Source: the human T2T-CHM13v2.0 reference genome, Homo sapiens
Reading direction: 5' to 3' (one strand)
DNA length: 64,000 nt
NCBI RefSeq assembly: GCF_009914755.1
Contig: NC_060947.1
In this document: positions 5,143 to 24,896 of the stretch, one piece after another
Numbering within the stretch: the first letter of the stretch is position 1
How the letters are laid out: the number at the start of each line of letters is the position of its first letter
Position numbers and translations under genes: made by a program
The notes under the pieces: generated by a model
What the model saw: only the letters and a program-made list of their open reading frames with translations
The model's database searches: none
Told to the model about the DNA's origin: nothing

Positions 5143-8100
5143 TGCCTTGCCTTATGCCTTGCTGGGCCTTGCCTTATGCCTTGCTGGGCCTTGCCTTGTG
5201 CCTCACCTAGCCTTGACAAGCCTTTCCTTCCCTTGCCTTGCCATGCCTTGCATTGTGCCTTGCCTTGCCTTTTGCCTTGCCTTGCCTTGACTTGTGCCTT
5301 GCCTTGTGCTGCCTTGCCTTGTGCCTTGCGCCTTGCCTTACTTTGTGCCTTGTCTTGCGCCTTGCCTTATTTTTGCCTTGTGCCTGGCCTTGCCTTACTT
5401 TGCCTTGCCACGCCTTGTGCCTTGCCTTGCCTTGCCTTGTTTTGCCTTGTGCCTTGGCTTGTGTTGCTTGGTGCCTTGCCTTATGCCTTGCCTTGCCTTG
5501 TGCCTTGCCTTGCTTTGCCCATGCCTCGTGCCTTGCCATGCCTCGTGCCTTGCCATGCCTCGTGCCTTGCCTTGCCTTGCGCCTTGCCTTGTGTTTTGCC
5601 TTGCTTTGTGCTTTGCCTTGCCTTGCTTTGCCTTGCCTTGTCTCGCCTTGACTTGTGCTTTACATTGTCTTGCCTTGTGCCTTGCCTTGCCTTGCTCTGT
5701 GCCTAGCCTTGTCTTGTGCCTTGCCTTGCTTTGTGCCTTGTGCCTTGCCTTGCCTTGCCTTGCCTTGCCATGCCTTGTGCCTTGCCTTGCTTTGCCTTGT
5801 CATGCTTTGTGCCTTGCTTTGCCTTGTGACTTGCGTTGCCTTGCCTTGTGCCTTCCCTTGCCTTGACTTGTGTGTTGATTTGCCTTGCCTTGTTACTTGA
5901 CATCCCTTGGGTTGTGCCTTGCCTTGTGCCTTGCATTGCTTTGCCTTGCATTGTGCCTTGCTTGTGCCTTCCCTTGCCTTGTCTTGTGCCTTGCTTTGTC
6001 TTGGCTTGTGTCTTGCCTTGTAACTTGCCTTGCCTTATGCCTTGCCTTGCCATACCATGTCTTGCCTTGCCTTTTCTTGCCTTTCCTTACCTTGCCTTGT
6101 GCCTTACGTTGCCTTGGCTTGCTTGTGCCTTAACTTGCCTTATGCCTTGCCTTGCCTTGTTCCTTGCCTTGTTCTGTGCCTTACCTTGCCTTGCCTTATG
6201 CCTTGCTTTGGCTTGCCTTGACTTGGGCCTTGCCTTGCTGTGCCTCACTTTCTGCCTTGCCTTGCCTTGCTTTTTGCTTTGCCTTGCCATTCCCTTGTGC
6301 CTTGCCTTGACTTGCTTTGCACCTTGCCTTGCCTTTTGCCTTCATTTGCCATGCTTTGTGCCTTGCCTTGCCTTGCTGGTCCCTTGACTTGCCTTGTGCC
6401 TTGCTTTCTCTTTGCTTGCCTTTTGCTTGCCTTGCCTTGCCTTGTGCCATGCCTTGGCCTTCCTTTGCCTCGCTTTCCCTTGCCTTGCCTTGACTTGTGA
6501 CTCGCCTTGCCTTGCCGTGTGCCTTGCCTTCGCTTGTAACTTGCCTTATACCTTGCCTTGCGATGCCTTGCCTTGACTTGTGACTTGCCTTGCCTTGCTT
6601 TGTGCCTTGCCTTCACTTGCAACTTGCCTTATACCTTGCTTTGCGATGCCTTGTCTTGCTTTCCCTTGCCTTGCCTTGTGCCTTGGCTTTCCTTGCCTTG
6701 CATTTTACATTGCTTTGCCTTACCTTGTGCCTTGCCTTGTGCCTTGTCTTGCCTTTGTGCCATGCCTTGCCTTCTGCCTTGCCTTGCCTTGTGCCTTGCC
6801 TTGCCTTCTGCCTTGCATTTCTTTGCCTTGCCTTGTCTTGTGCCTTGCCTTGCATTGCATTGGCTTGCCTTGACTTGACTTGTGCATTGATTTGCCTTGC
6901 CTTGTTACTTGCCTTCCCTTGGCTTGTGCCTTGCTTGTGCCTTGATTTGCCTTGCCTTGTGCCTTGCATTGTGTTGCCTTGTGCCTTGATTTGCCTTGCC
7001 TTGCCTTGGCTAGTGCCTTGCCTTGCAAATTGCCTTGCCTTGCCTTGCCTCTCCTCGCCTCCTAAATTGCCTTCCCTTGCCTTGTAAATTGCCTTGCCTT
7101 ATAAATTGCCTTTCCTTGTAAATTGCCTTGCCTTGTAACTTGCCTTCCCTTGTGCGTTGCCTTGCCATGCCTTGTCTTTCCTTGCCTTGTGCCTTGCCTT
7201 GCCTTGCTTGTGCCTTGCCTTGCCTTGTGCCTTGCTTTGCCTTGCCTTGTGCCTTGTTTGGTTTGCCTTGACTAGGGCCTTGCCTTGTTGTGCCTTGCTT
7301 TCTGCTTTGCTTTGACTTGCCTTGCCTTGTGCCTTGCCTTGCCTTGCCTTGCTTTACTTTTTGCTTTGCCTCACTATTCCCTTGTGCCTTGCCTTGACTT
7401 GCCTTGCACCTTGCCTTGCCTTGCCTTTTGCCTTCACTTCCCTTGCTTTGTGCCTTGCCTTGCCTTGCTTTGCCTGGTGCCTTGACTTGCCTTGTGCCTT
7501 GCCTTCCCTTTGCTTGCCTTGTGCCTTGCCTTCCCTTCACTTGCCTTGTGCCTTGCCTTCCCTTCGCTTTGCCTTGTGCCTTGCCTTGCTTTGTGCCTTG
7601 CCTTGCCCTGTGCCTTGCCTTGCCTTGCCTTGCCTTGTGCCTTGCCTTGCCTTGCCTTGTGCCTTTCCTTGTGCCTTGATTTTCCTTGCCTTGTTCCTTG
7701 CCTTGCCTTGATTTGTGCCTTGTCTTGCCTTGCCTTGTGCCTTGGCTTGCCTTGTGTTTGCATTGCCTTGTCTTGCTTTGTCCCTTGCCTTGCCTTGTGC
7801 CTTGCCTTACCTTGCCTTGTGCCTTGCCTTGCCTTGTGCCTTGCCTTGCCTTGTGCCTTGCCTTGCTTGTGCCTTGCCTTGCATTGCTTTCCCTTGCCTT
7901 GTGCCTTGCCTTACCTCGCCTTGTGCCTTGCCTTGCCTTGTGGCTTGCCTTGCATTGCTTTCCCTTGCCTTGTGCCTTGCATTGACTTGCATTGTGCCTT
8001 GCCTTGCCTTGACTTGTGCATTGATTTGCTTTGTCTTATTACTTGCCTTCCTTTGGCTTGTTTCTTGCCTTGTGCCTTGCCTTGCTTTGTGCCTTGTGCC

Positions 8101-23100: not shown

Positions 23101-24896
23101 GGCTTTCCTTACCTTGTGACTTGCCTTGCCTTATGTTGCACTGTGCCTTGCCTTGCCTTGCCTTGCCTTGCCTTCTGCCTTCTCCCTTGCCTTGACTTGC
23201 CTTACCTTGTGCCTTGCCTTGCCTTGTACCTTGCCTTTTTTTGCCTTGTACCTTGCCTTTCCTTGCCTTGTGCCTTGCCTTGCTGTGCCTTGCCTTGTGC
23301 CTTGCATTGACTTGCCATGCCTTGTGTCTTGCCTTGCCTTGTGCCTTGCCTTTCTTTTCCTTGTGCCTTATCTTGCCTTGCCTTGTGCCTTGCTTACCTT
23401 TCCTCGTGCCTTCCCTTGACTTGCTTGTGCCTTGCCTTCCCTTGCCTTGCCTTGCCTTGTGCCTCGTCTTGTGTCTTTCCTTGCCTTGTCTTGTGCCTCG
23501 TCTTGTGTCTTTCCTTGCCTTGTCTTGTGCCTTGCCTTGCCTTGCGCCTTGTATTGACTCAGCTTGTGCCTTGCTTTGCCTTACCTTTTGTTTTACCTTT
23601 CCTTTCCCTGCCTTCTACCTTGCCTTGCCTTGTGCCTTGCCTTGCTTTGTACCTTGCCTTTCCCTGCCTTCTACCTTGCTTTGCCTTGTGCCTTGCCTTG
23701 CCTTGCCTTGCCTTGCCTTGCTTTGTACCTGGCTCTGCCTTGCCTTGTTTTGTCTTGCACCTTGCCTGACTTGCCTTGTGCCTTGCTTTGTGTTGCCTTG
23801 CCTTATCTTGCCTTGGCTTGCCTTGTGCCCTTAAATCTCCTTGCCTTGCCTGGAATTGCCTTGTTTGGAGCCTTGCCTTATGCCTTGCCTTGCCTTGTGT
23901 CATGCCTTGTTTTTTGCCTTGCCGTGCCTTCTGCCTTGCCTTGCCTTGCCTTGCCTTGTGCCTTGGCTTGCCTTACCTTGTCCCTTGCCTTGCATTGCTT
24001 TGCCTTGTGCCTTGCCTTGATCTGCCTCGTGCCTTGCCTTGCCTCGCCTTCCCTTCCCTTGTGCCTCACTTTGCCTTGCTTTGATTTGCCTAGTGTTTTG
24101 TCATGCCTTGCCATGTGCCTTGCCTTGCCATGTGCCTTGCCTTGCCATGTGCCTTGTGTTGCCTTGCACCTTGCCTTGTGTTGCCTTGCCATGTGTTTTG
24201 CCTTGCTTTGTTTTGTTCCTTGATTTGCCTGGCCTGCCTTCTGCCTTGACTTGCATTGCCTTGGCCTTGCCTCGCATTGACTTTCCTTCTGCCTTGCCTT
24301 TCCTTGCCTTGCCTACCTTGTCCCATTCCTTGCCTTGCCTTGTGCCTTGCTGTCTCTTGCCTTGCTTTGTGCCTTGCCTTGCCTTGCCTTGCCTTGCCTT
24401 GGTGCTTGCCCTGCCTTGCCTTGCCCTGTGTCTTGCCTTACCTTGCCTGGTGTCTTGCCTTGCATTGCCTTACCTTGTGCTTTGCCTTGCCTTGCCTTGT
24501 GTCATGGTTTGCCTGGCCTCGCCTTGTTTTGTACTTTGCCTTGCATTGCCTTTGGACTTGCCTTGCCTTGCCTTTTCTTGTGCTTTGCCTTCTGCCTTGC
24601 CTTGCCTTTCCTTGTGCCTTGCATTGCCTTGCCTAGTTTTTCTTTATGCCTTGCCTTGCATTGTACCTTGCCTTGCCTTGCCTAACCTTGCATTGTGCCT
24701 CGCGTTGGGACGTGCCTTGCATTGCCTTCCTTTGTGCCTTGCCTTGCCTTGCCTTGCCTTGCCTTGCCTTATGCCTTACCTCGCCTCGTGTCTTGCCCTG
24801 CCTTGCCTTGCGTTGTGCCTTGCATTGCCTGGTTCTGCCTTTGCCCTTGCCCTTGCCCTTGCCTTTGCCTTTGCCTTTCCCTTGCCCTTGCCTTGC
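5143..24896 (+). repeat. Giant degenerate pentanucleotide satellite (GCCTT)n / (AAGGC)n with interspersed GT dinucleotides, ~19.7 kb
   Basis: continuous gccttgccttgccttgtgccttg... across the interval; plus strand very A-poor; interrupted only by one Alu. Confidence 0.98.
17540..17758 (-). mobile_element. 5'-truncated AluY inserted in the satellite
   Basis: 19-nt poly-T, Y-type ccgtgttagccaggatgg and ccattctcctgcc; flanks gctgtgccttttt / gccatgccttttt. Confidence 0.9.

What the first reader, a model, noticed from the sequence alone, without database searches (positions are those of the whole stretch)
5143..24896. ~20 kb isolated euchromatic (GCCTT)n pentanucleotide satellite downstream of TAB3
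Seen: about 19.7 kb of a 5-bp unit (at most ~3,900 units) with GT insertions giving 7/12/17/22-bp phrases. The plus strand is strongly pyrimidine-rich and nearly A-free. The array sits among ordinary interspersed repeats ~21 kb past the TAB3 3' end. Known: pentamer arrays this long are typical of pericentromeric HSATII/III (CATTC), which is a different motif. Inference: this is a single-locus satellite that may have its own chromatin state or length polymorphism. I cannot say whether it has been characterised already.
Basis: partly seen in the sequence, partly recalled or inferred. Interest (0 to 1): 0.8.

Follow-up and report, generated by a model that had tools for sequence, protein, structure and literature searches.

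The report
Old Alu-tail pentamer array near TAB3
A real 20-kb, single-locus block of degenerate GCCTT repeats on human Xp21.2 that most likely grew out of the tail of an old Alu element; it has been in published lists since 2008 and is used as an X-chromosome imaging target.

Summary
TRF reports one array at exactly 5143-24896 (period 5, 3,624.6 copies, 66% matches). The plus strand is 75% pyrimidine and 4.1% A.

Three refinements:
- The 5-bp register is lost within about 20 bp. The lasting period is about 22 bp, (GCCTT)4 plus GT.
- A 5'-truncated Alu with a target-site duplication interrupts the array at 17540-17761.
- The right edge abuts the 3' end of a very old minus-strand Alu, where its poly(A) tail should be, and the array reads AAGGC on the Alu strand.

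Four of the five other (AAGGC)6 loci in CHM13 sit in Alu tails. The composite motif occurs only in this array (24 of 24 and 192 of 192 genome-wide hits).

My best reading is a neutral, decaying, fixed expansion of an Alu-tail pentanucleotide repeat, of the same kind as RFC1.

It is not new. Warburton 2008 lists it (hg18, 18,136 bp). Guan 2017 targets it for CRISPR imaging and FISH. Its chromatin state is untested. The 18.1 kb versus 19.75 kb difference only hints at length variation.

The parts
5039..5137 (+). Left flank: fragment of an interspersed repeat, cut off a few bases before the array starts
   Evidence: There are many paralogous copies at 82-89% identity, with 1,062 first-look candidates. 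In copies L027-L029 the element continues past this point. That continuation is found nowhere in the 64-kb window.
5143..17539 (.). Array segment A (12.4 kb): degenerate (GCCTT)n with GT insertions. It reads AAGGC on the minus strand.
   Evidence: TRF; composition and word spacings; autocorrelation; wrap-around alignment.
17536..17544 (.). Left copy of the 9-bp target-site duplication (TGCCTTTTT) of the inner Alu
   Evidence: Read directly from the sequence. The same 9 bases recur at 17763-17771.
17540..17761 (-). 5'-truncated Alu inserted into the array. It has a 19-T run (its poly(A) tail) at 17540-17558 and its body from 17559 to about 17761.
   Evidence: Sequence. It is the only stretch inside the array that is unlike the array. 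It aligns to a local Alu consensus with 9.6% non-CpG difference (16 of 167 columns).
17763..17771 (.). Right copy of the target-site duplication of the inner Alu
   Evidence: Sequence.
17762..24896 (.). Array segment B (7.1 kb), with the same composite repeat
24836..24896 (.). Alu-proximal transition zone of 6-bp units (AAGGGC / AAAGGC on the minus strand)
   Evidence: TRF row with period 6, 10.5 copies, unit TGCCCT; sequence.
24897..25172 (-). Old, nearly full-length Alu whose 3' end abuts the array. Its last 8 nt and its poly(A) tail are missing, and the array sits in their place.
   Evidence: Alignment to Alus in L021 and L001. In the L021 Alu, 8 nt separate the homologous point from the A-rich tail. 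Its non-CpG difference from the local consensus is 20.7% (47 of 227 columns), the highest of 36 Alus compared.

Best explanation
This is a fixed, ancient and now decaying mega-expansion of a pentanucleotide repeat that arose from the poly(A) tail of an old Alu. It needs no function to explain it.

Proposed sequence of events:
1. An old Alu inserted on the minus strand (shown: the element is there).
2. Its A-rich tail mutated into AAGGC-type units. This is inferred from its position, from the motif gradient next to the Alu, and from the other AAGGC loci.
3. A 2-bp insertion (GT on the plus strand) created composite units of about 22 bp (also 17 and 27 bp). Slippage or unequal exchange amplified these to roughly 890 units, about 19.5 kb. 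The periodicity and the local runs of identical variant units are shown; the process itself is inferred.
4. Amplification stopped and the array has since accumulated point changes without homogenisation (shown: 11.5% substitutions, and no long near-identical blocks).
5. A younger Alu then retrotransposed into the array (shown: poly-T run and target-site duplication).

Because the composite motif exists nowhere else in the genome, the array works as an X-specific handle, and it is already used as one for CRISPR imaging and FISH.
For: Position and polarity:
- The array starts at the base after window 24897. That is the point in a minus-strand Alu that lies 8 nt before where the A-rich tail begins in the L021 Alu.
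- The array reads AAGGC on the Alu sense strand.
- The first 61 bp next to the Alu are AAGGGC/AAAGGC hexamers.

Precedent within the same genome:
- Four of the five other loci with exact (AAGGC)6 are in Alu tails: L001, L002, L003 and L021. L003 also replaces a 3'-truncated Alu end. The fifth, L004, is not next to an Alu.

Chance of the adjacency:
- My rough estimate is about 0.2%. It assumes about 18 full-length Alus in 44 kb of non-array window, half in the needed orientation, and a 10-bp tolerance. This is an inference, not a test.

Contrast with the inner Alu:
- The Alu at 17540-17761 shows what insertion into an existing array looks like: a 19-T run, a 9-bp duplication, and array sequence on both sides.

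Order of ages:
- Flank Alu 20.7%, array units 11.5% substitutions from GCCTT (2,054 of 17,896 aligned bases), inner Alu 9.6%.

Composite unit:
- Autocorrelation is 0.614 at lag 5, 0.584 at lag 22, 0.546 at lag 17 and 0.249 at lag 20, against a chance value of 0.335. The pattern is the same in every 2-kb block.
- Identical variant units occur in runs spaced 22, 27 or 29 bp apart, for example at 9211/9233/9255 and 7487/7514/7541.

Decay:
- The best internal self-matches are 80-91% identical, and none is a long near-identical block.

Literature:
- A preprint reports that 68% of 28,446 human pentanucleotide repeat loci map to Alu elements, and about 96% of those lie in the poly(A) tail (10.1101/2025.05.27.656002, passages).
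- AAGGC is one of the motifs found expanded at RFC1, at about 880-900 units (PMC10689911, abstract and passages).
Against: - No target-site duplication could be found for the flank Alu plus array.
- The interspersed repeat on the left is cut off at the array edge, and its continuation is absent from the window. At least one further rearrangement, probably a deletion, must therefore be assumed.
- The last 8 nt of the Alu are missing, so the junction is not a pristine tail.
- No other species could be examined, so primate specificity and timing are untested.
- The divergence-based ordering is rough. The consensus is a local majority of mixed Alu subfamilies, and variant units may have been amplified rather than mutated in place. 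Transitions and transversions are about equal (1,063 against 991), and C>T (819) far exceeds G>A (142). Neither fits simple neutral decay.
- 'No function' rests only on the absence of signals that I could test.
Confidence: 0.7

Rival explanations
1. The array is a functional chromatin element of the X. It could be a repeat-bound heterochromatin island, a boundary, or an anchor specific to the inactive X, in the manner of DXZ4 or FIRRE. Its length would then matter.
For: It is large (19.5 kb), single-locus and X-linked, and it lies between GK and TAB3. Its length differs between assemblies. Nothing I ran excludes binding by a repeat-specific zinc-finger protein.
Against: - There is no CTCF-like core at up to 1 mismatch anywhere in the window (0 matches; 0.59 expected by chance).
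- The units are degenerate and show no homogenisation.
- No gene or RefSeq functional element overlaps the array in the hub table.
- There is no Rfam match in 4000-26500.
- Neither single strand folds better than shuffled sequence (z from -0.07 to +1.41).
- None of these is a direct test of chromatin.
Confidence: 0.1
2. The array arose independently of the Alu, from some other seed. The Alu either lies next to it by coincidence or inserted at its edge.
For: There is no target-site duplication, the Alu lacks its last 8 nt, and the left flank is a truncated element. One of the five other AAGGC loci (L004) is not next to an Alu.
Against: The junction falls at the tail position, with the correct strand polarity. 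There is a motif gradient next to the Alu. No poly-T run separates the Alu from the array, and there is no array sequence to the right of the Alu, unlike at the bona fide insertion at 17540-17761. Four of the five other loci are Alu tails.
Confidence: 0.18
3. The array is an assembly artefact of T2T-CHM13.
For: None was found. The only oddity is a 1.6-kb length difference from the older references.
Against: The same array is listed at the corresponding place in hg18 (18,136 bp, Xp21.2) and in hg19. It was chosen there as a CRISPR and FISH target. The published guide has 101 matches and the published probe 192 matches at up to 1 mismatch, all inside the array.
Confidence: 0.01

Closest known systems
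The same locus as catalogued: 'CCTTG, Xp21.2, chrX:30716537-30734673 (hg18), 18,136 bp' in Warburton et al. 2008 (PMC2588610, Table 1), and 'ChrX:30806671-30824818 (hg19)' in Guan et al. 2017 (bioRxiv 10.1101/101444)
   Same: Same chromosome band, motif and size class. The 2008 text says RepeatMasker calls it diverged (CCTTG)n and TRF gives 17-, 20- and 27-bp periods. The 2017 guide and probe sequences match only this array in the window, and the probe matches only this array in the whole genome.
   Different: The CHM13 copy is about 1.6 kb longer. In the passages I read, neither paper discusses the array's origin, the flanking or inner Alu, the 22-bp unit, or chromatin. The 2008 text places it at Xp11.22 whereas its own table says Xp21.2.
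Alu poly(A)-tail pentanucleotide repeats, especially RFC1 (AAAAG/AAGGG/AAGGC; CANVAS)
   Same: The repeat sits at the 3' end of an Alu in the sense orientation. The motif is the same, AAGGC, which is reported expanded at RFC1 to about 880-900 units. Motifs change stepwise along the array, and composite longer units arise from a mutated pentamer.
   Different: The array here is about four times longer (about 3,600 pentamer equivalents). It is present in three reference assemblies (hg18, hg19, CHM13) rather than being a rare allele. It is highly degenerate, intergenic and X-linked, and no disease link is known to me.
HSat2/HSat3 (GAATG/CATTC) classical satellites
   Same: A 5-bp basic unit, arrays over 10 kb, and a higher-order structure laid over a 'simple' sequence.
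   Different: The motif differs. Those satellites occur at many pericentromeric loci and reach up to about 100 kb in the hg18 table, whereas this array is single-locus and euchromatic.
X-linked macrosatellites DXZ4 / FIRRE / ICCE
   Same: X-linked, single-locus tandem arrays.
   Different: Their units are of kb scale (DXZ4 3.0 kb, over 99% identical units). From recall, they bind CTCF. Here the unit is 5/22 bp, only 66% of positions match between neighbouring copies, and no CTCF-like core is present.

Membership tests
Alu-tail-derived pentanucleotide tandem repeat (RFC1-type locus) | The repeat starts at the 3' end or poly(A) tail of an Alu, downstream in the Alu's own orientation | tested here: met
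   A minus-strand Alu lies at 24897-25172. The array begins at 24896 and runs leftward, 8 nt short of the point where the tail begins in the L021 Alu.
Alu-tail-derived pentanucleotide tandem repeat (RFC1-type locus) | The motif is purine- and A-rich on the Alu sense strand and can be derived from poly(A) through intermediate motifs | tested here: met
   The array reads AAGGC on the Alu strand. AAAGGC/AAGGGC units lie next to the Alu. AAAGG-to-AAGGC and AGGGC-to-AAGGC series are seen in the Alu tails at L021, L002 and L001.
Alu-tail-derived pentanucleotide tandem repeat (RFC1-type locus) | A target-site duplication brackets the Alu plus its tail-derived repeat | tested here: not met
   No shared sequence was seen between the bases left of 5143 and those right of 25172. 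The left-flank element is truncated and does not resume anywhere in the window.
Alu-tail-derived pentanucleotide tandem repeat (RFC1-type locus) | Primate-specific, appearing only after the Alu insertion | not testable with these tools
Largest human simple-sequence arrays over 10 kb (Warburton 2008) | A TRF array over 10 kb made of a short unit and listed in Table 1 | tested here: met
   The table row reads 'CCTTG Xp21.2 5 chrX:30716537-30734673 18,136'. TRF here gives 19,754 bp.
HSat2/HSat3 pericentromeric satellite | GAATG/CATTC-derived unit | tested here: not met
   The consensus unit is TGCCT/GCCTT.
HSat2/HSat3 pericentromeric satellite | Many pericentromeric loci | tested here: not met
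   The composite motif is confined to this locus (24 of 24 and 192 of 192 hits). By the hub table the array lies in the euchromatic interval between GK and TAB3.
CTCF-binding X macrosatellite (DXZ4/FIRRE type) | A kb-scale unit with a CTCF motif in each unit | tested here: not met
   The unit is 5/22 bp. A 15-nt CTCF core consensus, typed from recall, gave 0 matches at up to 1 mismatch in the window.
CTCF-binding X macrosatellite (DXZ4/FIRRE type) | Opposite chromatin states on the active and inactive X | not testable with these tools
   No epigenomic data are available here.

The most novel reading that the evidence does not exclude
The array is more than a fossil. As the only large AAGGC-type block in the genome, it would recruit a repeat-specific binding protein and form its own chromatin domain on the X, possibly differing between the active and the inactive X. 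Its kb-scale length variation would then modulate the GK-TAB3-DMD neighbourhood.
Probability: 0.08. Interest if true: 0.6.

Novelty: already known. Interest (0 to 1): 0.22.

Why it matters
Mostly it does not change anything. The array has been in print since 2008 and is already used as an X-specific imaging handle.

The modest added value is the reading of its origin. It looks like a natural end-state of an RFC1-type Alu-tail expansion:
- about 3,600 units present in all three reference assemblies rather than as a rare allele;
- converted from a 5-bp microsatellite into a 22-bp minisatellite-like array;
- then left to decay.

If primate comparisons confirmed this, the locus would give a dated example of how far such expansions can go, and of what happens to them when they are not pathogenic.

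It is also a practical caution for annotation. By the hub table, NCBI's masking leaves most of the array unmasked.

Tried and rejected
- **Target-site duplication and empty site for the flank Alu plus array.** I found paralogous copies of the left-flank element and aligned them. I then searched the whole window for the element's continuation with a sensitive BLAST and got no hit. The structure is therefore not a clean insertion.
- **kb-scale higher-order repeats or recent internal duplications.** A strict self-BLAST gave nothing beyond the self-match. A relaxed run gave 10,415 rows. After dropping the mirror and self rows, the best hits were 80-91% identical. The best single block was 171 bp at 91% (offset 818), inside an 872-bp match at 80%. 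I did not calibrate these against a simulated array.
- **Non-B or hairpin potential.** Four 150-nt single strands did not fold better than shuffled sequence.
- **Rfam.** No family matched in 4000-26500.
- **CTCF-like core.** None was found.
- **Coding.** Open frames of 310-409 codons occur in all six frames. I dismissed them because every stop codon, on either strand, needs an A in the plus strand, and A is only 4%.
- **Literature searches that found nothing on this locus.** These were, and (482 papers held a term, but only the top 40 were listed). Two DMD structural-variant papers and the 'Red' paper mention TAB3 or the motif for unrelated reasons.
- **Other points.** The CRISPR-Sirius preprint describes genome-wide mining of chromosome-specific repeats but does not name this locus in its main text. 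Supplements were not opened for any paper, and bioRxiv supplements are closed. They may hold more uses of this target.
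Full report
**1. Is it there?**

Yes. It has period 5, 3,624.6 copies, 66% matches and 15% indels, and the rows for periods 17 and 22 score about the same.

The 19,754 bases are T 43.5%, C 31.8%, G 20.6% and A 4.1%. GC rises to 0.50-0.55 and AT skew falls to between -0.68 and -0.88, against ordinary values in the flanks. A 6-mer likeness scan shows sharp edges at both ends.

By the hub table the TAB3 3' end is at 45653, so the gap is 20,757 bp.

CpG is scarce: 129 observed against about 1,295 expected from composition. 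The unit itself has no CpG, so this is not CpG decay.

**2. Anatomy**

*Purity.* The array is very impure. Only 55.5% of bases lie in perfect 8-mers or longer of (GCCTT)n, and the longest pure run is 35 bp. Purity is even along the array, at 0.50-0.65 per kb. The one exception is the kb that holds an insertion.

*Alignment to the unit.* I aligned the two repeat segments (19,533 bases) to a cyclic GCCTT unit with a wrap-around method. The result was:
- 15,842 matches;
- 2,054 mismatches (11.5%);
- 1,637 inserted bases, mostly single G (531) and single T (480), which are the GT insertions;
- 78 deletions.

*Periodicity.* The pentamer register is short-lived:

| Lag (bp) | Autocorrelation |
|---|---|
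| 5 | 0.614 |
| 10 | 0.464 |
| 20 | 0.249 |
| 25 | 0.217 |
| 22 | 0.584 |
| 17 | 0.546 |
| 27 | 0.527 |
| 44 | 0.485 |
| chance | 0.335 |

Lags 20 and 25 fall below chance. The pattern is the same in every 2-kb block.

Spacings between TTGTG peak at 22 (76), then 17 (48), 27 (28) and 12 (24). Spacing 7 occurs only 7 times. That distribution has a mode at 22 and is not geometric, so GT insertions are not scattered at random.

Identical variant units occur in short tandem runs at these spacings. Examples are 9211/9233/9255 (22 bp apart, same variant), 7487/7514/7541 (27 bp) and 10809/10838/10867 (29 bp).

The array is therefore better described as roughly 890 copies of a composite unit of about 22 bp, (GCCTT)4 plus GT, with 17- and 27-bp variants.

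*No larger order.* I found no kb-scale higher-order repeat and no recent block duplication. The best internal matches are 80-91% identical.

**3. One interruption**

The only part of the span that is unlike the array lies around 17550-17750.

The sequence shows a 19-T run at 17540-17558 followed by a reverse-complemented Alu body to about 17761. The Alu is truncated at its 5' end. The 9 bases TGCCTTTTT occur on both sides, at 17536-17544 and 17763-17771.

This is the signature of retrotransposition into an array that already existed. The Alu differs from a local Alu consensus at 9.6% of non-CpG columns (16 of 167). Part of that is subfamily difference. From recall only, it looks like a Y/Sc-type Alu. 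I did not test the subfamily.

**4. The right edge**

From 24897 to 25172 lies a nearly full-length Alu on the minus strand.

Its 3' end stops 8 nt short of where the A-rich tail begins in a comparable Alu (L021). The array begins at the very next base and reads AAGGC on the Alu's sense strand.

The 61 bp nearest the Alu are 6-bp units, AAGGGC/AAAGGC (TRF period-6 row).

This Alu is the most diverged of the 36 I compared: 20.7% of non-CpG columns (47 of 227) against 3.8-17.6% for the others.

Unlike at the inner Alu, no poly-T run separates it from the array, and no array sequence lies on its other side.

**5. Elsewhere in the genome**

The CHM13 assembly could be searched.

- Exact (GCCTT)6 occurs 13 times. 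Six of these are in the array and the other seven fall at five other loci.
- Those five loci are short, with about 100-300 bp of AAGGC-rich sequence.
- Read in the AAGGC orientation, four of the five (L001, L002, L003, L021) sit in the tail of an Alu. Some follow AAAGG or AGGGC runs. In L003 the repeat replaces a truncated Alu 3' end, much as it does here.
- The fifth locus (L004) lies in a purine-rich tract that is not next to an Alu.
- The composite phrase is unique to this locus. All 24 matches to a 29-mer at up to 2 mismatches lie in the array. So do all 192 matches to a 21-mer at up to 1 mismatch: 192 genome-wide and 192 in the window.
- The tool warns that counts of repeats are lower bounds.

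**6. What speaks against a clean Alu-tail story**

I could not find a target-site duplication.

The left flank (about 5039-5137) is a fragment of a common interspersed repeat. In paralogous copies that element continues beyond the point where the array starts. The continuation is not found anywhere in the window.

At least one additional event, most simply a deletion at the distal end, must be assumed.

The substitution spectrum is also odd for plain neutral decay:
- transitions 1,063 against transversions 991;
- C>T 819 over two C positions, against G>A 142 and T>C 102.

Amplification of variant units such as GCTTT, alignment ambiguity, or strand-biased damage could each contribute. I did not resolve this.

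**7. Function**

Nothing I could test points to a function.
- No gene or RefSeq functional element overlaps the array (hub table).
- There is no Rfam match in 4000-26500.
- Neither strand folds better than shuffles (z between -0.07 and +1.41).
- Long open frames in all six frames (310-409 codons) follow from the lack of A and mean nothing.

Chromatin state, methylation, protein binding and transcription cannot be examined here.

**8. What is in print**

Warburton et al. 2008 (PMC2588610; abstract and passages including Table 1) ran TRF on hg18 for arrays over 10 kb. They list 'CCTTG, Xp21.2, period 5, chrX:30716537-30734673, 18,136'. Their text notes that TRF's 17-, 20- and 27-bp repeats are diverged (CCTTG)n by RepeatMasker. 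The text gives the band as Xp11.22, at odds with the table. In the stretches of Table 1 that I saw it is the only pentamer row that is not GAATG.

Guan et al. 2017 (bioRxiv 10.1101/101444; passages) list hg19 ChrX:30806671-30824818 (18,148 bp) among the tandemly repetitive targets. They give a guide and a FISH probe for it. In the window the guide has 101 matches and the probe 192 matches at up to 1 mismatch, all inside the array.

The general mechanism is also in print. A 2025 preprint (10.1101/2025.05.27.656002; passages) reports that 68% of 28,446 pentanucleotide repeat loci map to Alu elements, and about 96% of those lie in the poly(A) tail. It also notes longer composite motifs arising from mutated pentamers. 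Its main text does not contain AAGGC, chrX or TAB3.

Dominik et al. 2023 (PMC10689911; abstract and passages) report AAGGC among the motifs expanded at RFC1, at about 880-900 units. I recall that the RFC1 repeat lies in an Alu tail, but that paper's text does not use the word 'Alu' as a whole word.

I found no paper on the origin, population variation or chromatin of this X array. The library holds only open-licence PMC papers and bioRxiv, and I opened no supplements.

**9. Verdict**

The object is real, single-locus and very large for its kind, but it is already catalogued and already in use as a tool.

My best reading, at about 0.7, is a fixed, decaying Alu-tail pentanucleotide expansion that turned into a 22-bp array and needs no function.

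The difference between 18.1 kb (hg18 and hg19) and 19.75 kb (CHM13) is consistent with length polymorphism but does not prove it.

The functional-chromatin idea stays open at low probability.

Noticed in passing
window 5143-24896: Substitutions relative to GCCTT are strand-asymmetric. C>T totals 819 over the two C positions, against G>A 142 and T>C 102, and transitions roughly equal transversions (1,063 against 991). Possible causes are amplified GCTTT-type variant units, alignment ambiguity, or strand-biased damage or transcription. This is unexplained.
   Followed up: partly
window 5143-24896 (hub annotation): The hub table says only 18% of the window is masked in NCBI's file and that the longest masked stretch is 626 bp. 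The 20 listed stretches, about 6.9 kb in all, lie outside the array. Most of this 19.7-kb repeat is therefore unmasked in that file.
   Followed up: no
G000 genome-wide: The tool's control for (GCCTT)6 is the pattern read backwards. It has 377 forward and 398 reverse matches in CHM13, far more than the query's 13 matches. That control evidently hits another abundant satellite and is not a neutral control here.
   Followed up: no
L003 (G000:C4:77755837-77758866) and L002 (G000:C2:98504459-98507488): These are small AAGGC arrays in Alu tails. In L003 the repeat replaces the last part of the Alu body as well as the tail. In L002 a long (AAAGG)n/(ACAGG)n tail ends in (AAGGC)6 directly against the 5' end of a second Alu.
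   Followed up: partly
window 12202-12367 versus 13020-13190: This is the best internal self-match: 171 bp at 91% identity with offset 818, lying inside an 872-bp match at 80% with offset 889. It may be the trace of an old duplication of about 0.85 kb within the array.
   Followed up: no
window 5143-5190: The left edge of the array begins with a duplicated phrase of about 23 bp (gccttgccttatgccttgctgg, twice) rather than clean pentamers.
   Followed up: no
PMC2588610 text versus Table 1: The 2008 paper's text places the CCTTG array at Xp11.22, whereas its own table gives Xp21.2 with coordinates that fit this locus.
   Followed up: yes
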